Assembly (NCBI GenBank): GCA_964623985.1
Contig: CAZUXG010000002.1
Location: 17,106-81,105 of the forward strand
Length of the DNA: 64,000 nucleotides
Direction: 5' to 3'
From: an uncultured Thermodesulfobacteriota bacterium
GTDB lineage: Bacteria; Desulfobacterota; Anaeroferrophillalia; Anaeroferrophillales; Tharpellaceae
In this document: positions 3,234 through 64,000 of the stretch, piece by piece
Layout: each line of letters starts with the position of its first letter
How positions within the stretch are numbered: position 1 is the stretch's first letter
Position numbers and translations under genes: made by a program
The notes under the pieces: model-generated
The model's database searches: none
The model's input: only the letters and a program-made list of their open reading frames with translations
Told to the model about the DNA's origin: nothing

Positions 3234-4277
3234 TCAAATAATAATCCCGCCACCCAGTAGCCGGTCACCGTGATAGAAAGCGGCCCCCTGCCCTGGGGTT
3301 ATGGCGAATTGGGGGGATACAAACTCAATTTCAGCCTGGCCATCAGCCCGCCGATTAAGGATAGCCAAACCCGGCTCATGACGATAACGAATCCGACACT
3401 CTATTTCAAGAGGTTGAGAAGGCGGCTCAATCAACCAATTAATCTGGTTAACTTTAAAACGGCAACTATAAGCCTCTTCCCGCTTACCTACCAGAAGACG
3501 GTTATCTTGATAATCGAGTTTAATCACATAGAGGGGCTCGGGATTTGCGATCCCCAAACCCCGACGTTGACCAATCGTGTAATTCTGCAGGCCGTGATGT
3601 TCTCCCCGCACGCGACCCTGGCTGTCGACAATCTTGCCGCGACCGCTGATCACGCCCCGCCGCACAAGAAACTCCTGGTACCTTTCACCGTTAAGAAAAC
3701 ATAGTTCCTGACTCTCCCGGTAATTGTCAAGCTCATAACCCGCCTCAGCCGCCAGAATCAGAGCCTTATCCTTACAGACCTCTCCCAAAGGGAAGAGACT
3801 TCGCTGCAATAGCTTTTCCGGTACTGAAAAAAGAAAATAACTCTGGTCTTTACGTTTGTCGCAAGCTTTAAGAAAAGTAACTTCGGACTTATTCGAAACC
3901 CCGGCGAATCGCCGAAAATAGTGCCCGGTGGCCAGCTTCTCAATCTTTAAACGCTCGGCGACCATTGCCAGACAAGCAAATTTAACCAGAGCATTGCAAC
4001 GAATACAGGGATTCGGGGTTTGGGCATGGGTATAAGCAAAAAGCAGATATTCAACCACTTCTTTTGAAAAAGCCTCGACCGCCGGTTCAACCAGTAACTC
4101 AAGCCCCAGCCGGATAGCCATATTTGATGCTCGCTCCAACAAAAAAGAAGTATCCGCTCCCCCCAGATCAAGGACGACAGGAATCACTTGATAACCTTGT
4201 TGCTTAAGCAAAACGGCGGCCGCCGCGCTGTCGACGCCGCCGCTAAAACCCAAAACCACGCTCTTTACTTTAGTCAT
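3234..4277 (-). CDS. mnmA: tRNA-specific 2-thiouridylase MnmA
   Basis: 347 aa. N-terminal PP-loop VVLGFSGGVDSAAAA and the overall MnmA architecture through the C-terminal domain. Confidence 0.85.
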   Translation of the reverse strand: MTKVKSVVLGFSGGVDSAAAAVLLKQQGYQVIPVVLDLGGADTSFLLERASNMAIRLGLELLVEPAVEAFSKEVVEYLLFAYTHAQTPNPCIRCNALVKFACLAMVAERLKIEKLATGHYFRRFAGVSNKSEVTFLKACDKRKDQSYFLFSVPEKLLQRSLFPLGEVCKDKALILAAEAGYELDNYRESQELCFLNGERYQEFLVRRGVISGRGKIVDSQGRVRGEHHGLQNYTIGQRRGLGIANPEPLYVIKLDYQDNRLLVGKREEAYSCRFKVNQINWLIEPPSQPLEIECRIRYRHEPGLAILNRRADGQAEIEFVSPQFAITPGQGAAFYHGDRLLGGGIII

Positions 4278-4766
4278 TTATTTTGATTTGCCTCTGAAAT
4301 TCGCTCTATTTTCATTTATTATTTTACAAAGCCTTCATAATTCCTTTTTAAAAATACAGTAGATAATAAAAAAAGGGAACCAATTTAAGCTCAACTCCCT
4401 TATTCGACAGGTCTGCAGGTCCTTGAAAAATAATCGGTTTACACCAATACCGAACTACAGAAAAATCCCAATCAGACAAGTAAAAAGACAAAAGTTGCTA
4501 ATTCTCCGAATAACAATTTCTGTTTCAGACTCTCTCCCCCTCTAAAATTCGGGGCTTTTAAACACAGAAATACGAGGATACCATGACCATTTATCTTGTG
4601 CGTTAACCTCCTTATCTTTTTAAAAGCTTACCTTATCCCTTAAGAACTTTATCAAGGCGCCCTAAGTAAAGATAAAAAACCGACATTACACTGGACGCAA
4701 GCCTTGAATTTATGCTATGCCAATTCCTCATAAAAACCAACTTAATAAGTAAATCGGGGCGATATC

Positions 4767-6449
4767 ATGCTGTTGGGAATAGATGTTGGCGGTACCCATA
4801 CGGATGCGGTTATCATTGATCGTGGAGGGATAGCAGCTACGGCCAAAGTCGAGACCGACCATAGTAACCTGATCACCTCTCTTGATATGGTCTTAGAAAA
4901 GATTTTAAGTTCAGGACCCGACCAACCTATCAGCAAGATCAACCTGAGCACGACTCTGACCACCAACGCCATTGTCGGAAAGGAGCTTGAAGAGGTTGGC
5001 GTTCTCGCGGTTTCCGGTCCGGGGCTAGCAACAGATTGTTTCAACCACAATCTCGGTGAACATTTCCATCTTCTTGAAGGCTCAATCGACCATCGCGGCA
5101 ATTTACGACTAGCTTTAAATGATGTTGCCGCACGGGAAGTGGTGGCCGGCTGTCAACGCAAGCAACTCAAGGTTTTTGCCGTCGTCAGTAAATTCTCTCC
5201 CCGCAATCCTGAAATCGAACAAACTCTGGCTGAGCTCGTCTCTACACAATCCGACTTTACGACTATCGGTCATCGGATCTCCGGGCGGCTCAATTTCCCC
5301 CGACGTCTGGCAACCGCCTACTACAATACAGCTGTCTGGCGCCGCTACAACGCTTTTGCCGACGCGGTCTCCCTGAGTATCAAAAAATATAAGCTTAACG
5401 CACCACTCAATATCCTTAAAGCCGACGGGGGTACGATTAACTTTAAAAACTCCCGCAACAACCCGATCCAAACGATTCTTTCGGGTCCGGCCGCCAGTGT
5501 CATGGGAATTATCGCCTTAAGTTCAATTACCGAAGATGCCATCATTCTCGACATCGGCGGAACCACTACCGACATCGCCATTTTCGCCAACGGCGCACCC
5601 CTCCTCGAAAAAGAGGGGGTTAGTTTCGGCGGCCGGGCAACGTCGGTACGGGCCATCGGCACTCATTCGATCGGCATTGGCGGCGACTCGGCAATCACCA
5701 TCAACTCTGATGGCAAGATAATGATCGGGCCCCAACGCATGGGTCCACCAATGGCCCTTTCCGGACCGCAACCGACCCTGATTGACGCCTGCAACGTTAA
5801 AAGATTATGCAATCTCGGAAATTTTGCCAAATCTTTTAGCGGCCTAAAAGAATTGGCTGAACAAAACCAATTAACAACTGAGCAACTGGCTGATGAAGCT
5901 CTTGATACGGCGCTGAAAACCATTCAATTTGAAGCACTTAAACTTTTGGATACGATCAACCAAAGGCCGGTCTATACGGTTGAAGAAATTGTGCATGGCA
6001 AACAAATAATCCCACAACAACTCTACGTTATGGGCGGTCCGGCCGTAATTCTGGCGCCATTGCTGGGGCAGTCCTTTGACCTTGCAACCGAAGTCCCGGA
6101 CAATTATGCAGTTGCCAATGCCATCGGCGCAGCCCTGACCCGCACAACCATGGAGATTGAACTCTTCGCTGATACCGGCAAAAAAACGCTGTTGATACCT
6201 AATCTAGGTATAAAACGAAAGATAAACAGTTCCTATTCATTGAACAAAGCCCAAGACGATGGGGTTAGTGAAATAGTGAAATATCTCAAAGAAAACAATC
6301 ATCCCGAAATCAAAAATGAGGATGTCTCCGTGGTTGAGGCCGAATCTTTCAATATGGTCGACGATTATTCTGTCGGCAGTAAAACCATTCGCGTCAGTTG
6401 CCAGATTCGGCCCGGCCTCGAAAAGGATTACCTCGAGGGAATTAAATAA
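4767..6449 (+). CDS. Hydantoinase/oxoprolinase (HyuA-like, ASKHA-fold) family protein
   Basis: 560 aa. N-terminus MLLGIDVGGTHTDAVII and a second ATPase-like motif LDIGGTTTDIAIF. The stop overlaps the start region of the next gene with a 1 bp gap. Confidence 0.6.
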   Translation: MLLGIDVGGTHTDAVIIDRGGIAATAKVETDHSNLITSLDMVLEKILSSGPDQPISKINLSTTLTTNAIVGKELEEVGVLAVSGPGLATDCFNHNLGEHFHLLEGSIDHRGNLRLALNDVAAREVVAGCQRKQLKVFAVVSKFSPRNPEIEQTLAELVSTQSDFTTIGHRISGRLNFPRRLATAYYNTAVWRRYNAFADAVSLSIKKYKLNAPLNILKADGGTINFKNSRNNPIQTILSGPAASVMGIIALSSITEDAIILDIGGTTTDIAIFANGAPLLEKEGVSFGGRATSVRAIGTHSIGIGGDSAITINSDGKIMIGPQRMGPPMALSGPQPTLIDACNVKRLCNLGNFAKSFSGLKELAEQNQLTTEQLADEALDTALKTIQFEALKLLDTINQRPVYTVEEIVHGKQIIPQQLYVMGGPAVILAPLLGQSFDLATEVPDNYAVANAIGAALTRTTMEIELFADTGKKTLLIPNLGIKRKINSSYSLNKAQDDGVSEIVKYLKENNHPEIKNEDVSVVEAESFNMVDDYSVGSKTIRVSCQIRPGLEKDYLEGIK

Positions 6450-9774: not shown

Positions 9775-9825
9775 CGAGAACGATTGCCGAAGAGTTCCTT
9801 GATCTACAAACCACTAAATAAAAAA

Positions 9826-9865
9826 AGAAGGGTGATGGAGTTAAACTCCATCACCCTTCTTTTTA
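9826..9865. terminator. Bidirectional rho-independent terminator between convergent hsp20 and the hotdog-domain gene
   Basis: AGAAGGGTGATGGAG-TTAAA-CTCCATCACCCTTCT, a perfect 15 bp stem, is flanked by an A-run upstream and a T-run downstream. Confidence 0.7.
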
Positions 9866-45341: not shown

Positions 45342-45494
45342 GATGGTGTCGTAAAAATTTCGATATAAAAGAAGTCATAGGCTTTCAGGTGTGAGACCAT
45401 ACATTTAGTATGTCGAGTGTCTGAAAAACCGTACGCCTCACAGGAAGTGCCCTTGGGGTACAACGTAATAGATCAAAATTTTTACGACACCATC
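45342..45494. repeat. MITE-like element: 19 bp perfect terminal inverted repeats enclosing about 115 bp with nested imperfect palindromes
   Basis: GATGGTGTCGTAAAAATTT at 45342-45360 and AAATTTTTACGACACCATC at 45476-45494. The interior contains CAGGTGTGAG/CTCACAGGAAG and CATACATTTAGTATG sub-palindromes. Confidence 0.5.
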
Positions 45495-61072: not shown

Positions 61073-61648
61073 TTAATAATTTTCCCCCAACAATTCAAAA
61101 TGAGCCTGGGCATGATTACAGGCGGCACACAAATCAGGAGCTTCATTGCCACTATGCAGGTATCCACAATTGCGACACCGCCAAGTGACCTTATCATCAC
61201 GTTTGAAAACGCGCCCAGCCTCAATATTAGCGGCTAAATCAAGATAGCGCTTCTCATGCTGTTTCTCAGCCACGGCAATTGCCAAAAAGATACCGGCAAT
61301 CTCGGCAAAGCCCTCTTCACGAGCGATAACCGCAAATTCGGGATACATCTCGGCATGCTCATGATTTTCACCGGCCGCCGACTCTTTCAGGTTATCAAGA
61401 GTCGAACCGACCACCCCGGCAGGAAAAGAACCGCTGATTTCGATTTCACCACCTTCCAACAGTTTAAAAAGACGTTTAGCATGCTCTTTCTCCTGATCGG
61501 CAGTTTCACCAAAAATCTCTGAAATTTGCACATAACCTTCTTTTTTCGCCTTACTGGCAAAATAATTATAGCGGTTACGGGCCTGACTTTCACCGGCAAA
61601 GGCGGTGAGAATATTCTTTTCGGTTTTACTTCCTTTAAGGGTTGCCAT
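61073..61648 (-). CDS. rbr: Rubrerythrin (ferritin-like diiron domain plus C-terminal rubredoxin domain)
   Basis: ExxH diiron motifs and C-terminal CRNCG...CAAC rubredoxin-type centre. Confidence 0.85.
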   Translation of the reverse strand: MATLKGSKTEKNILTAFAGESQARNRYNYFASKAKKEGYVQISEIFGETADQEKEHAKRLFKLLEGGEIEISGSFPAGVVGSTLDNLKESAAGENHEHAEMYPEFAVIAREEGFAEIAGIFLAIAVAEKQHEKRYLDLAANIEAGRVFKRDDKVTWRCRNCGYLHSGNEAPDLCAACNHAQAHFELLGENY

Positions 61649-61866
61649 AACGACCTCCTATGAATTAAAATTCTAACGCTTACCAAATAAAGTTCATCAA
61701 GGTAATACTCATACACCGAAACAAAGCCCGCCGTCAACCCTAATCCACAAAATACTAGCCCAACGTATTTCTCCCTTGCGCCAACGGCAAAACCGCCCTA
61801 TAATATTCACAATGATTCAAAAACCCCACTATTAGAGAATAAAAAACAACCGGAGTCTGGACTTTT

Positions 61867-62274
61867 ATGGAAAAAATCAAGAAGTTTTTCAAAAAGGATC
61901 GTTTTGCGGCCCACAACGATATCACTCTGCTTGAGGCCCGCCCAGGTTACGCTAAAGCCGAACTTATCATCAGCGACAAACATCTCAATGGGGTCGATAT
62001 TACCCATGGCGGAGCCATCTTTACCTTGGCCGATCTCACCTTTGCCGTGGCTTCGAATTCTCACGGCACGATCGCAGTCGGCATCAGCGCAACCATCTCC
62101 TACCTCAAGGCGACACACCAGGGAACCCTCACCGCCGAGGCCCGGGAAGTTGCACTTAACCCCAAACTGGCAACCTACCAGGCCGAGGTACGCGATGAGC
62201 ACGGTGAGCTTGTTGCTATTTTCCAGGGTACGGTTTATCGTAAAAAAGCGAGCCTCGAGATAACCGCTTCGTAA
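61867..62274 (+). CDS. PaaI-family hotdog-fold thioesterase
   Basis: 135 aa. Motif DITHGGAIFTLADLTFAVASN. Confidence 0.75.
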   Translation: MEKIKKFFKKDRFAAHNDITLLEARPGYAKAELIISDKHLNGVDITHGGAIFTLADLTFAVASNSHGTIAVGISATISYLKATHQGTLTAEAREVALNPKLATYQAEVRDEHGELVAIFQGTVYRKKASLEITAS

Positions 62275-62778
62275 TAACCGGGATTATAACACACTACTTG
62301 CTAAAAAAATATAAAGCCGTTGACCCAACCGCTGAAACTTCCAGACAAAAAAAGCGGCGGCCTTAGTTGCAAGAACTATATTCGCCCTTAAAAACCACAA
62401 CGCAAAAACTCCGGCAGACGCTACTTAAAAATGGGGTGATTACCTCCTCATCTCGACCTTTTCTACAAAATTGGTATTGTGATAATTGTACCAATTTGCT
62501 TACAGGTTGCAGTTACGTATATTTACTATGAAGTTCAAGTTTATTGTTTGACAGAAAAGTTAAGATTGGCGGATGCAATTTATCAGTCAAGGATAAAAAT
62601 TTGACCCCATTCATCAAAGCAAATAGAGATAAGAAAATAGATTTTTAGGATGACAACGATTTTCCATAATTACCTCACAATATCTGGATATGTGGAAATA
62701 GTAGCCATCTATTAGTGTCAATATCATGAAAAGTTTCCACTTATTGACAATGTTATATGCTACTTCTAAGGAGAAAAT

Positions 62779-63390
62779 ATGTTTTGTAAAGAATGCGGAA
62801 ATAAAGTTGAAGATACTGCAAAATTTTGCTCAAAGTGCGGAGCTTCAACGTCAGAAAAAGGTGTTAAAACAGCCTCAGTTGACCTAAAGACTCCAGTCGT
62901 GACAGCAAAACCGGTATTTATACCATGGATAACTATTGCATCAGTGTTGCCAATTCAGCTATTCATAACAGTTTGGGCAGGAGGCCTTTTGGGTGGTTTG
63001 GGACTGCTTGGCGTAAATGCACTTGGCCTAAACCTTCCAATATGGTCCACATTTGTGTTCTTTGGAGCATTGGTATTTTTCGGCATTCCATTTTTAGCCT
63101 ACTACGCAAAGAAAAAGACGTATGCTAAAACAGAATATAAATTTTACCCAGACAGACTAGAGTACGCAGAAGGGTTTTGGACTGTAGAAAACAAAACCAT
63201 CAAATACAAAAATATTACGGAAACCAATTTGAGAAGAGGTATTCTTCAAAAGAAATATGGTATAGGGTCAATAATTTTTTCTACACCATCAACTGGTACT
63301 CAACAGGGGAGTGCAAGAAGTGGTATAATAATTTCTGACATCGAGAATACAGAAAAAATTTACAGTAAAGTACTAGAATTAATTGGATAA
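62779..63390 (+). CDS. Zinc-ribbon plus two TM helices plus bacterial PH (bPH_2/YdbS-like) domain membrane protein; AT-rich gene
   Basis: MFCKECGNKVEDTAKFCSKCG zinc ribbon, two hydrophobic helices, and a C-terminal bPH-like region (YPDRLEY...IKYKNITETNLRRGILQKKYGIGSIIF). GC is much lower than in the flanking genes. Good RBS AAGGAG. Confidence 0.65.
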   Translation: MFCKECGNKVEDTAKFCSKCGASTSEKGVKTASVDLKTPVVTAKPVFIPWITIASVLPIQLFITVWAGGLLGGLGLLGVNALGLNLPIWSTFVFFGALVFFGIPFLAYYAKKKTYAKTEYKFYPDRLEYAEGFWTVENKTIKYKNITETNLRRGILQKKYGIGSIIFSTPSTGTQQGSARSGIIISDIENTEKIYSKVLELIG

Positions 63391-63487
63391 ATCATATAAC
63401 AAAGGCATGAACACTGATCAAAAAATGCGCCCGAAATTTCAGTCCTTATTCCGTATGCCTATAGCACATTTTTTGACAGGTTATGCC

Positions 63488-63668
63488 AAACGATAGGACG
63501 GACCGCTTCGCGGCCCGTCCTATCGGGTGCTGTTGAGGGCCTCGACCACGATTGATATTCTCCGCGCTCCGCCTATCAATCGCGTTCGAGCCGACTCCGC
63601 GTCTTGGTGTCTACGCAAGCAAGCTTGCTTCGCCACCTGCGATGCTCGCGGCTCAACAGCACCCGTTA
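63488..63668. other. GC-rich, highly palindromic ~180 nt element in AT-rich surroundings (candidate structured ncRNA or palindromic mobile element)
   Basis: A perfect 10 bp hairpin GATAGGACGG...CCGTCCTATC. It is followed by a domain closed by a perfect 14 bp long-range pair CGGGTGCTGTTGAG (63526-63539) / CTCAACAGCACCCG (63651-63664). That domain contains internal hairpins (CGATTGATA/TATCAATCG; GCAAGCAAGCTTGCTTCGC). Confidence 0.4.
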
Positions 63669-63876
63669 GCTGAGCCAGAACAAAAACTAATTATTGAAAA
63701 AGACAAAAATAATATCTGGGATATTCAGCAAGTTAAATCCAATCCCAATGATCTTTTAACAGCAATTTGGGTCGGGCATACTAACATCCCAAAATTAATG
63801 AGTTAAGGTGTTTAGTTTTTAAAAGCCCTTAAACTCGTATCTTTGACCCCAAAACACATCTTTAAGAAGAGGAATC

Positions 63877-64000
63877 ATGGACAGCTTACGCCCCATTATT
63901 CACACCACCGCCATCCAACCGGAATGGCTCGATTATAACGATCATCTGAACGTGGCCTATTACCTACTGATTTTCGATCAGGCCGGTGAGGCCCTGGTGC
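63877..64000 (+). CDS. Acyl-CoA thioesterase (YbgC/4HBT hotdog family), N-terminal fragment; continues beyond window end
   Basis: GAGGA RBS, then MDSLRPIIHTTAIQPEWLDYNDHLNVAYYLLIFDQAGEALV, the typical YbgC-like N-terminus. Confidence 0.6.
   Translation, partial: MDSLRPIIHTTAIQPEWLDYNDHLNVAYYLLIFDQAGEALV

What the first reader, a model, noticed from the sequence alone, without database searches (positions are those of the whole stretch)
62300..63668. AT-rich foreign-looking gene followed by a GC-rich ~180 nt element with nested perfect palindromes
From about 62300 to 63420 the GC content drops sharply. This stretch holds a zinc-ribbon/TM/bPH-domain membrane protein. Immediately after it, GC jumps and the sequence folds into a perfect 10 bp hairpin and a domain closed by a perfect 14 bp long-range helix. 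That domain has several internal hairpins including an AAGCTT-centred palindrome. The ORF-track CDS 63552-63806 lies inside this structure and is probably not coding. It matches no ncRNA I recognise (not tmRNA, RNase P, SRP, 6S consensus or common riboswitches). It could be a novel structured RNA, a palindromic insertion element, or a recombination site marking the edge of the acquired DNA.
Basis: seen in the sequence. Interest (0 to 1): 0.5.

Follow-up and report, generated by a model that had tools for sequence, protein, structure and literature searches.

The report
Gene-less integron cassette, all recombination site
The GC-rich palindromic element is not a new RNA gene: it is an integron recombination site (attC-type) that forms a tiny gene-less cassette beside the AT-rich membrane-protein cassette, so the region is an ordinary integron cassette array with one unusually built member.

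Summary
Window 63492-63668 folds far better than shuffles (z about -7), matches no Rfam family, and the overlapping ORF is not coding.

Comparative breakpoints show what it is. The Zn-ribbon/bPH gene is an integron gene cassette (62753-63492). It starts at G|TTATAT, and its inverse core ATATAAC is the exact complement of GTTATAT.

The GC-rich element is a separate unit of about 173 bp, bounded by crossover points G|AT (63492|63493) and G|TT (63665|63666). A second strain (L002) is identical up to ...CACCCGTTA. It then carries a different cassette (HNH) with a canonical attC.

A metagenome scan found two further subfamilies, 10 more copies in total, always inside cassette arrays. One copy lies next to an integron integrase. 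These copies shuffle with other cassettes at the same junctions.

The right arm of the element equals that of an ordinary attC. All three subfamilies keep the layout R''-spacer-L''(two bulged bases)-loop-L'-spacer-R', but with a GAT/ATC core instead of GTT/AAC. Hairpin stems covary.

No integrase lies within the 64 kb window, so this is an integrase-less array (CALIN).

Verdict: a new variant of a known kind, of moderate interest.

The parts
62679..62758 (+). attC-like site ('attC0') that ends the preceding gene-less stretch. Its crossover G is at 62752, followed by TTATAT, the start of the next cassette.
   Evidence: It is 79% identical over 84 nt to the attC that precedes an element copy in L105. 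Window...CACTTATTGACAAT G|TTATAT. L105...CACTTATTAACACT G|ATAAAT. DNA homology between the window and L084 begins exactly at G 62752. Its own fold is weak (z -0.5), so the call rests on homology and the junction.
62753..63492 (+). Integron gene cassette carrying the Zn-ribbon / TM / bPH membrane-protein gene (ORF 62779-63390).
   Evidence: Pfam Zn_Ribbon_1 and bPH_2. Nucleotide homology to the 80%-identical homologue in L084 runs only from 62752 to 63425. The cassette start G|TTATAT (62752-62758) is the exact reverse complement of the inverse core ATATAAC (63394-63400), which is the cassette signature. Homologues are scattered over many phyla. GC 0.369 against 0.471 for the window.
63394..63492 (+). 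attC of the Zn-ribbon/bPH cassette ('attC1'). R'' is ATATAAC (63394-63400). The L-box arms are 63418-63430 and 63464-63476. The crossover G is at 63492, or alternatively R' is GTTATGC at 63480-63486.
   Evidence: Inverted repeat I4. The bottom-strand DNA fold has z -3.3. The homologous attC in L084 has a different but still complementary L box (TCAAAAAAGC/GCTTTTTCGA) and a compensatory change in the GGCAT/ATGCC inner helix.
63492..63524 (+). Hairpin 1 (H1), GATAGGACGGaCCGC-TTC-GCGGcCCGTCCTATC. It consists of the 5' end of the element (the part of its own R' that follows the crossover, G|ATAGGA) paired with its outer inverse core TCCTATC.
   Evidence: Across three subfamilies the outer 10 bp are 5 invariant and 5 compensatory, with no broken pair. 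The left boundary of the family is always G|ATA.
63525..63537 (+). 5' arm of the closing helix (Hc), GGGTGCTGTTGAG.
   Evidence: It pairs perfectly with 63652-63664. GGTGCTGTTGAG is invariant in all subfamilies. It corresponds to the left arm of ordinary attCs of the same arrays, for example GGTGCT-TGAGCC in L099.
63541..63590 (+). Hairpin 2 (H2), CTCGACCACGATTGATA / TATCAATCGCGTTCGAG. Its 3' arm is an attC-type left arm (R''-like, spacer, start of L'').
   Evidence: Of 17 pairs, 13 have a single Watson-Crick pair type and 4 are compensatory; 5 pair positions carry a mismatch in one subfamily. The core CGCTCCGCCTATCAATnGCGTTCGAGCCGACTCCGC is 95% identical between subfamilies A and B.
63571..63671 (+). 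Inner canonical attC layout: R''-like GCCTATC (63571-77), spacer AATCGC (63578-83), L'' GTTcGAGCCGaC with two bulged bases (63584-95), variable loop (63596-63647), L' GCGGCTCAAC (63648-57), spacer AGCACCC (63658-64), R' GTTAGCT (63665-71).
   Evidence: A regular-expression parse succeeds in all three subfamilies, giving 96-108 nt. The right arm GGCTCAACAGCACC-GTT is identical to that of an ordinary attC in L099 at 1553-1643.
63606..63637 (+). Hairpin 3 (H3), the AAGCTT-centred palindrome. This is the variable part of the loop.
   Evidence: In subfamilies B and C it is replaced by unrelated sequences that also form hairpins (GGAAAAAGAGA/TCTCTTTTTCC and CATGAAAAGGAAAT/ATTTCCCTCTCATG).
63652..63664 (+). 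3' arm of the closing helix, CTCAACAGCACCC.
63665..63671 (+). Core site R' GTTAGCT, with the crossover between G 63665 and T 63666.
   Evidence: L002 is 99.87% identical to the window over 61355-63668. From 63669 on it is unrelated (GTTATGT..., HNH cassette). In the 10 other copies the bases after GTT differ: AGGC, CGAC, GGGC, ATGC, ATCT, CGGC, ATAT, CGGT.
63552..63806 (+). 84-aa ORF from the ORF track. Not a gene.
   Evidence: No Pfam hit. It crosses the recombination junction at 63665/6. In subfamilies B and C the frame shifts or hits a stop.

Best explanation
The region from about 62680 to 63671 is a short integron cassette array without an integrase (a CALIN). It sits between two thioesterase genes of a Thermodesulfobacteriota genome; the closest relatives are MAGs including 'Ca. 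Tharpella'.

The AT-rich Zn-ribbon/bPH gene is one cassette with its own short attC. The GC-rich element is a second cassette of about 173 bp that has no gene and consists almost entirely of an attC-type recombination site.

Inferred mechanism. When the DNA is single-stranded, the bottom strand folds into hairpin 1 plus a stem closed by GGGTGCTGTTGAG/CTCAACAGCACCC. An integron integrase supplied in trans cuts at the G| position. The unit can then be excised as a circle and re-inserted at the G|TT of another attC. Its own core is GAT/ATC instead of GTT/AAC. This explains why every copy starts G|ATA and ends G|TT. It also explains hairpin 1, because the 5' end ATAGGAC... is the displaced half of its own R' lying next to its inverse core.

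What is shown: the boundaries, the family, the array context, the shuffling, the structure conservation, and the absence of coding.

What is inferred: catalysis by IntI, use of the bottom strand, and any benefit to the host.
For: 1. Cassette signature of the neighbouring gene. Homology to L084 starts at G|TTATAT (62752), and the inverse core ATATAAC (63394-63400) is its exact complement.

2. A recombination junction at the element's 3' end. L002 is identical up to CACCCGTTA. It then carries an HNH cassette that starts TTATGT. That cassette's attC has ACATAAC...GTTATGT and folds canonically.

3. A family. plus searches give 10 further copies in 3 subfamilies with different flanks. All begin G|ATA and end CACC(C)G|TT.

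4. Cassette-like shuffling.
- The same attC (...CCAGCCCTTCATGCAAGC G|) is followed in L100 by TTGTAAAC, TTAGTCTG or TTATATTAAGCC, and in L094 by ATAAATTG, which is the element.
- The TTATATTAAGCC cassette also follows the element in L104 and L105.
- Window attC0 is followed by TTATAT, whereas its L105 homologue is followed by the element.

5. Integron context. L097 carries an integron integrase (TIGR02249, 491 bits against a cut-off of 265). The element lies downstream of it, in the array's orientation relative to intI. The other loci show ORF-attC-ORF arrays with toxin-antitoxin cassettes.

6. Homology to bona fide attCs. The right arm is identical to that of L099's ordinary attC, and the inner R''-UCS-L''(2 bulges)-VTS-L'-UCS-R' layout is conserved.

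7. Structure under selection. In H1, 5 of 10 pairs are compensatory; in H2, 4 of 17. H3 is replaced but is always a hairpin. The bottom strand is 4-8 kcal/mol more stable in all three subfamilies.

8. A GAT core with a complementary ATC is a working substrate for IntI1 (Frumerie et al. 2009, PMC2811028).
Against: - No integrase lies in the 64 kb window or the 2.8 kb beyond it.
- The outer stem is perfectly paired, with no extrahelical bases and no unpaired spacer. The conserved triplet is ATC/GAT on one side. The unit (176-205 bp) is longer than typical attCs. These defining attC features are not met in the predicted lowest-energy fold; they are met only in the alternative inner fold.
- One copy (L099) lies inverted relative to its array.
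- Only three independent subfamilies are available, so the covariation statistics are thin.
- No attC covariance model (IntegronFinder or HattCI) could be run.
- The left end of the array (62275-62678) was not resolved.
Confidence: 0.8

Rival explanations
1. A non-autonomous mobile element (MITE-like) that specifically targets attC sites. It would be moved by a transposase in trans, for example an IS91-family rolling-circle enzyme or an IS1111-attC-type DEDD enzyme with a guide RNA, and not by the integron integrase.
For: Near-identical copies (94-100%) occur at many different places, always at the same position of an attC. IS91-family transposases lie next to copies in L097, L104 and L105. 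IS1111-family elements that target one end of attC sites are known (PMC11187229).
Against: Both ends fall exactly on the integrase crossover G|, and the flanks recombine with ordinary cassettes. There is no target duplication. There are no subterminal 11-13 bp repeats placed 7 and 3 bp from the ends, as described for IS1111. The right arm and the inner layout are homologous to ordinary attCs. The transposase lies upstream of the element in one locus and downstream in another.
Confidence: 0.08
2. A structured non-coding RNA (sRNA or cis-regulatory RNA) carried in a gene-less cassette. The conserved helices would then serve an RNA function, and the recombination site would be only the last part of the unit.
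For: Very strong fold (z -6.5 to -7.2) and compensatory changes in H1 and H2. A 40-nt internal core is 95% conserved between subfamilies A and B. Gene-less cassettes with regulatory activity are known (PMC11014356).
Against: No Rfam match. No sigma-70-like promoter lies in or just before the element. The helices are palindromes that form on both strands, and the more stable strand is antisense to the cassette genes. The conserved blocks are exactly the attC arm motifs. H3 is not conserved in sequence. There is no terminator-like T run.
Confidence: 0.07
3. A by-product with no function of its own: two attC sites fused head to head by an inversion or a replication snap-back at a folded attC, then passively carried along.
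For: The 5' half (TATC-GGGTGCTGTTGAG-GGC-CTCGACCACGATTGATA) is the reverse complement of the arms of the 3' attC with the loop left out. One copy is inverted in its array.
Against: The same architecture is kept in three diverged subfamilies with compensatory changes. Each subfamily has several near-identical copies in different places. This points to a propagating unit and not to a one-off accident. This rival concerns origin and is compatible with the main explanation.
Confidence: 0.05

Closest known systems
Integron attC sites (59-base elements) and gene-less (ORF-less) integron cassettes
   Same: Sits at the 3' side of a cassette inside cassette arrays. It ends in G|TTRRRY, and the flanks change at that point. 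It is an imperfect palindrome that folds as single-stranded DNA, with the bottom strand more stable. It has an R''-spacer-L''(bulged bases)-loop-L'-spacer-R' layout, and its right arm is identical to ordinary attCs of the same arrays. Gene-less cassettes are documented (PMC11014356, PMC6557892).
   Different: The cassette has essentially no cargo and is almost all recombination site (173-205 bp). The conserved triplet on one side is ATC/GAT and not AAC/GTT. The outer stem is a perfect 12-13 bp helix without extrahelical bases or an unpaired spacer. The loop is a three-way junction that contains an inverted copy of the attC's own arms. The unit is multi-copy within arrays, and one copy is inverted.
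CALIN (cluster of attC sites lacking an integron integrase; IntegronFinder terminology, PMC4889954)
   Same: At least three attC-type sites (62679-62758, 63394-63492, 63492-63671) lie in the same orientation within 1 kb, with no integrase nearby.
   Different: IntegronFinder itself was not run. The left end of the array is undefined. The array is very short in this strain and longer in the L002 strain.
IS1111-attC insertion sequences and group IIC-attC introns (elements that home to attC sites)
   Same: Repeated elements found at a fixed position of attC sites. A group II intron does sit right after the homologous attC in L084 (RF02005, E 2e-12).
   Different: The element has no transposase or reverse-transcriptase gene, no intron domains (Rfam negative), and no IS1111-type subterminal repeats. 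Its junctions are the integrase crossover points.

Membership tests
Integron attC site | Core site R' = GTTRRRY at the 3' end, with the crossover between G and TT | tested here: met
   GTTAGCT at 63665-71. L002 diverges right after GTTA. The 10 other copies all have GTT followed by variable bases. The fit to RRRY is loose: AGCT has C at the third R position.
Integron attC site | Inverse core R'' = RYYYAAC complementary to R' | tested here: not met
   Both candidate inverse cores read TATC (TCCTATC at 63518-24, GCCTATC at 63571-77) in all subfamilies. They are complementary to the unit's own 5' end G|ATAGGA (7/7 and 6/7), not to GTT. A GAT/ATC pair is recombination-proficient with IntI1 (PMC2811028).
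Integron attC site | L''/L' inverted repeats with extrahelical bases on the '' arm, and an unpaired central spacer | tested here: inconclusive
   The lowest-energy fold has a perfect 13-bp stem with neither feature. An alternative inner pairing, GTTcGAGCCGaC / GCGGCTCAAC with 6-7 nt spacers, has both features and is conserved in all three subfamilies.
Integron attC site | Length about 57-141 bp | tested here: not met
   The whole unit is 176-205 bp. The inner layout alone is 96-108 nt.
Integron attC site | Occurs in same-orientation arrays between cassettes, downstream of an integron integrase | tested here: met
   L097 has intI (TIGR02249, 491 bits) with the element in array orientation. Arrays are seen in L100, L107, L099 and L101. 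In 10 of 11 copies the element is co-oriented with its array, and L099 is inverted.
Integron attC site | Recombined by an integron integrase as folded bottom-strand DNA | not testable with these tools
   Only indirect evidence: cassette shuffling at G|, and a bottom strand 4-8 kcal/mol more stable.
Integron attC site | Detected by an attC covariance model (IntegronFinder attc_4 / HattCI) | not tested
Integron gene cassette (for ORF 62779-63390) | First bases TTRRRY complementary to the cassette's own inverse core; one compact ORF followed by an attC; the same unit found in other arrays | tested here: met
   G|TTATAT against ATATAAC is an exact complement. Homology to L084 is limited to 62752-63425. 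L084 is an array of small same-strand genes.
Known structured RNA families (Rfam 15) | Covariance-model match | tested here: not met
   No hit in 63400-63700 at E<=10.
IS1111-family or MITE-type element | Subterminal 11-13 bp inverted repeats 7 and 3 bp from the ends, or terminal inverted repeats with a target duplication | tested here: not met
   The ends are GATA... and ...CACCGTT, with no duplication of flanking bases in any of the 11 copies. The repeat geometry differs from that described in PMC11187229.

The most novel reading that the evidence does not exclude
A self-propagating 'minimal cassette'. This would be an attC-only unit that has lost the asymmetry (extrahelical bases, unpaired spacer) that normally forces integrases to use one strand, and that uses a GAT/ATC core. 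It could then insert in either orientation and multiply within and between arrays of different lineages. It would act as a selfish passenger of integrons, or as an array-restructuring site that promotes inversions, or that masks the neighbouring attC whose R' it replaces with GAT.
Probability: 0.25. Interest if true: 0.6.

Novelty: new variant of a known kind. Interest (0 to 1): 0.38.

Why it matters
The finding turns a puzzling 'novel RNA' candidate into a well-understood object: an integron cassette array in an uncultured sulfate-reducer-type genome.

It also flags an unusual cassette type. The unit has no cargo, consists of a nearly symmetric recombination site with a variant core triplet, and is kept in at least three diverged subfamilies with several copies each.

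If such units really move on their own, they would be parasites of the integron system, or tools that reshape arrays. They would also give a natural test case for two questions: how attC asymmetry sets strand choice, and how tolerant integrases are of the core triplet.

For annotation, it shows that short GC-rich 'ORFs' next to AT-rich cassette genes can be attC sites.

Tried and rejected
- Rfam at E<=10 over 62200-64000 gave only chance hits elsewhere.
- Searching the window for paralogous copies with arm patterns and a family HMM found none.
- Related genomes (80 loci around the paaI-like gene) were examined for an empty site. Synteny NadA-Rbr-PaaI is kept, but everything downstream differs in each MAG and no nucleotide homology extends past the stop codon. 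The left edge of the array therefore could not be mapped.
- BLAST of the element against PLSDB plasmids gave no match.
- A protein-database search with the spurious 48-aa ORF, meant to fish for more copies, found no candidates.
- A promoter and terminator scan showed nothing in the element.

Readings considered and rejected:
- Retron msr/msd: no reverse transcriptase nearby.
- Group II intron fragment: Rfam negative here, although a real intron sits at the equivalent place in L084.
- Intrinsic terminator: no T run.
- Coding ORF.

Four of the 14 metagenome pattern hits (L095, L096, L102, L103) are unrelated chance matches.

I first read GCCAAAC (63485-91) as the element's inverse core, and 'TTATGCCAAACG' as a 12-nt orphan between two crossovers. 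The family-wide left boundary G|ATA and a compensatory change in L084 favour attC1's crossover G being 63492. The alternative, R' = GTTATGC at 63480, is not excluded.
Full report
**Observation.**

The sequence features are as described. GC is 0.471 for the window and 0.356 in 62275-62752. It is 0.369 in 62753-63492, 0.624 in 63493-63665 and 0.327 in 63666-63867. ORF 62779-63390 carries Zn_Ribbon_1 and bPH_2 domains.

The GC-rich stretch holds four inverted repeats:
- 63491-63506 / 63510-63525 (16 nt, one mismatch).
- 63520-63537 / 63652-63669 (18 nt, one mismatch; perfect core of 13 bp, 114 nt apart).
- 63541-63557 / 63574-63590 (17 nt, 88%).
- 63606-63620 / 63623-63637 (15 nt, 80%, centred on AAGCTT).

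Folding is far better than for shuffled sequence on both strands. As RNA, z is -7.2 and -6.5. As DNA, z is -6.2 and -7.5. Rfam gives nothing there even at E<=10. There is no second copy in the window.

**The decisive lead: a strain difference.**

Exact look-ups of the membrane protein and of the upstream thioesterase returned two records. One is the window's own contig (L001/L003, which extends 2.8 kb further). The other is a 3.2-kb contig from another sample (L002).

L002 is 99.87% identical to the window over 61355-63668 and then unrelated. The break lies right after ...CTCAACAGCACCCGTTA. L002 continues TGTGCAAAT... with an HNH-endonuclease ORF. That ORF is followed by ACATAAC-GATGCCCTTGCAC...GGTGAAGGGCGGC-GTTATGT. 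This is a textbook attC whose bottom strand folds into an R box, a small unpaired spacer and a bulged L box.

The HNH unit starts TTATGT and its inverse core is ACATAA(C). This is the signature of an integron cassette, because the crossover falls between G and TT of the core site.

**The AT-rich gene is itself a cassette.**

The closest homologue of the membrane protein (P0002, 80% identity) lies in L084, in a run of small same-strand genes. Nucleotide homology with the window covers only 62752-63425. It begins at the G of GTTATAT (62752-62758), 27 nt before the start codon.

The sequence ATATAAC at 63394-63400 is the exact reverse complement of GTTATAT. It is followed by a stem (63418-63430 / 63464-63476). 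That stem differs in sequence in L084 but is still self-complementary there (TCAAAAAAGC/GCTTTTTCGA). So 62753-63492 is a cassette with its own short attC ('attC1').

The stretch just before it (62679-62752) is 79% identical to an attC in L105.

Homologues of the protein occur in Lentisphaeria, Planctomycetota, Verrucomicrobia, Omnitrophica and even an archaeal MAG. That spread fits a horizontally moving cassette gene.

**The GC-rich element is a separate, repeated unit.**

I scanned the metagenome collection for the two arms of the closing helix. This gave 14 loci, and 10 of them hold true relatives. There are three subfamilies:
- A: the window and L002.
- B: L097, L098, L099 and L101, which are 98-99% identical to one another.
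- C: L094, L100, L104, L105 and two copies in L107, which are 94-100% identical.

Within B and within C the flanks differ from copy to copy. Every copy starts (C)G|ATA... and ends ...CTCAACAGCACC(C)G|TT, followed by variable bases.

All three subfamilies fold into the same architecture. It consists of hairpin 1, then a 12-13 bp closing helix that encloses hairpin 2, hairpin 3 and a small fourth hairpin.

- Hairpin 1 has different sequences that stay complementary (GATAGGACGG/CCGTCCTATC, GATAAGCTGAC/GTCAGCTTATC, GATAAATTGACCGT/ACGGTCAATTTATC). Five of the outer 10 pairs are compensatory and none is broken.
- Hairpin 2 has 4 compensatory pairs of 17.
- Hairpin 3 is replaced wholesale but is always a hairpin.
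- The closing helix and two blocks (GAGCCGACTCCG and CTCGCGGCTCAACAGCACC) are invariant.

There is no conserved reading frame. In the frame of ORF 63552-63806, subfamily B shifts frame and C meets a stop. That ORF also runs across the junction at 63665/6 and has no Pfam hit. It is not a gene.

**It behaves as an integron cassette.**

- L097 encodes an integron integrase (TIGR02249, 491 bits, cut-off 265). It lies on the minus strand at 1288-2376, and the element lies downstream on the plus strand. This is the orientation expected for a site in its array.
- Read in the element's orientation, L100 is an array. It contains a 625-bp gene-less cassette in three copies. Each copy ends ...CCTGGGCTGTAGCAAATTTTTTCCAGCCCTTCATGCAAGC-G and is followed by TTGTAAAC, TTAGTCTG or TTATATTAAGCC.
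- In L094 the very same attC is followed by ATAAATTG, the start of the element.
- The TTATATTAAGCC... unit in turn follows the element in L104 and L105.
- Window attC0 is followed by TTATAT (the membrane-protein cassette), while its L105 homologue is followed by the element.

Both ends of the element therefore coincide with the points at which ordinary cassettes are exchanged. Upstream of every copy there is an ordinary attC stem-loop that lacks only the TT of its own core site. An example is L101: GCCCAAC-AAGGC-GTTcCAGCGGaCGCGC...GCGCGCCGCTGAAC-TCAATC-G|ATAAGC.

**Homology to ordinary attCs.**

L099 is an array in which each core site is complementary to the next inverse core (GTTGGGT/ACCCAAC, GTTATGC/GCATAAC). 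One of its ordinary attCs (1553-1643) ends GGCGGCTCAACAGCACC-GTTGGGC, the same right arm as the element. Its left arm reads GGTGCT-TGAGCCGAC.

Inside the element, all subfamilies keep the following layout, 96-108 nt long:
- xxxTATC.
- A 6-nt spacer.
- GTT(C/G)GAGCCGAC.
- A loop of 48-60 nt.
- GCGGCTCAAC.
- AGCACC(C).
- GTT.

This is the canonical attC plan: R'', unpaired spacer, L'' with two bulged bases, variable loop, L', spacer, R'. The one difference is that the inverse core reads ATC and not AAC.

The unit's own 5' end, G|ATAGGA, is complementary to both candidate inverse cores (TCCTATC 7/7, GCCTATC 6/7). In the excised circle the site would therefore have a GAT/ATC core. Frumerie et al. 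(PMC2811028) found that IntI1 tolerates changes at the second position of the triplet. The T-to-A change with the complementary change even raised recombination frequency.

The rest of the unit (hairpin 1, the 5' arm of the closing helix, the 5' arm of hairpin 2) is an inverted copy of the attC's own arms. That inverted copy is what creates the 'nested perfect palindromes'.

In all three subfamilies the bottom strand folds 4-8 kcal/mol better than the top strand. The bottom strand is the one integrases use.

**Oddities.**

- The lowest-energy fold has a perfect stem without extrahelical bases or an unpaired spacer. These are the features that normally impose strand choice (PMC5027507 and PMC2727003, titles and abstracts).
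- The unit is 176-205 bp, longer than usual attCs.
- In L099 the element lies inverted in the array and supplies the 3' site of a higBA cassette. Its inverse core GCATAAC matches that cassette's start G|TTATGC exactly.
- The other ten copies are co-oriented with the neighbouring ORFs or the integrase.
- In the window, attC1 has two possible crossover Gs, 63480 (GTTATGC) and 63492. The second makes the element abut the crossover as in all other copies. It is also supported by an inner helix GGCAT/ATGCC with a compensatory change in L084.

**Context in the window.**

No tyrosine recombinase was detected in the window or in the 2.8 kb beyond it, using a crude probe. The array is therefore an integrase-less cluster.

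It lies between a PaaI-type thioesterase (61867-62274) and a 4HBT_2 thioesterase (from 63868). Related Thermodesulfobacteriota MAGs keep NadA-rubrerythrin-PaaI but differ in everything downstream. The site is thus a variable spot, and the left edge of the array (62275-62678) could not be mapped.

**Rivals.**

*attC-homing MITE.* This is suggested by the copy number and by IS91-family transposases next to three copies. However, the ends are the integrase crossover points and there is no target duplication. There is no IS1111-type repeat geometry, and the transposase position is inconsistent.

*Structured RNA.* This is not excluded as an additional role. But there is no Rfam hit and no promoter. 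The structure is symmetric on both strands, and the conserved blocks are the attC motifs.

*Head-to-head attC fusion.* This is a plausible origin, but the architecture is maintained and propagated in three lineages.

**Verdict.**

The finding is a real feature, correctly located. It is best explained as an integron attC-type element that forms a gene-less minimal cassette next to the membrane-protein cassette (confidence about 0.8).

It belongs to a known kind of system but is an unusual variant: cargo-less, nearly symmetric, with a GAT/ATC core, multi-copy, and found in both orientations. Gene-less cassettes as such are known (PMC11014356; PMC6557892). I found no description of this particular family in the searches made, but those searches were limited.

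Noticed in passing
L084:4820-5800: A group II intron (RF02005 group-II-D1D4-6; E 2e-12 at 4849-5047 and a second weaker hit, E 3e-5, at 5267-5470) starts with GTGCG right after the attC of the homologous Zn-ribbon/bPH cassette. It is in the same orientation as the gene, and no ORF is called in about 1 kb. It may be an ORF-less attC-homing intron or a twintron.
   Followed up: partly
L097:2605-3843; L104:545-1861; L105:909-2225; L084:9518-10419: IS91-family (rolling-circle) transposase genes sit inside integron cassette arrays. In three loci they lie next to a copy of the element. In L097 the gene is split into two ORFs directly beside intI. The unit that starts TTATATTAAGCC (a 120-aa ORF plus the transposase) behaves like a cassette.
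   Followed up: partly
L100 (reverse strand coordinates 140-764, 761-1385, 3979-4608): A 625-bp gene-less cassette is present three times (93-96% identical), twice in tandem. Gene callers would produce a spurious ~100-130 aa ORF in each copy.
   Followed up: partly
L001:11809-13116 (2-3 kb beyond the window end): An AT-rich PhdYeFM-PIN toxin-antitoxin pair and a NYN-domain gene follow the 4HBT_2 thioesterase. No attC was obvious by eye, so this may be a second small island.
   Followed up: no
window:62329-62372: A stem-loop (GCCG..CCGCT / AGCGG-CGGC) has an A-run before it and, on the minus strand, a T-run after it. It looks like a terminator facing the paaI-like gene from the array side.
   Followed up: no
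L004-L015, downstream of the paaI-like gene: In twelve related MAGs the NadA-rubrerythrin-PaaI block is conserved but the DNA after PaaI differs in each. L006 has a 40-44% GC insertion and L010 a 34% GC small ORF, and many contigs end there. This looks like a recurrent insertion hotspot.
   Followed up: partly
window:26204-26310; 45342-45494; 9822-9864: Other long inverted repeats in the window: 47-nt arms (74%) 13 nt apart; 26-nt arms (92%) 101 nt apart; and a perfect 21-bp hairpin flanked by A/T runs that looks like a terminator.
   Followed up: no
L002:2338-2889: The HNH cassette protein (183 aa) has its best NCBIfam matches to the HNH domains of Cas9d and IscB (E about 1e-11). It is a stand-alone HNH nuclease carried as an integron cassette.
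   Followed up: no
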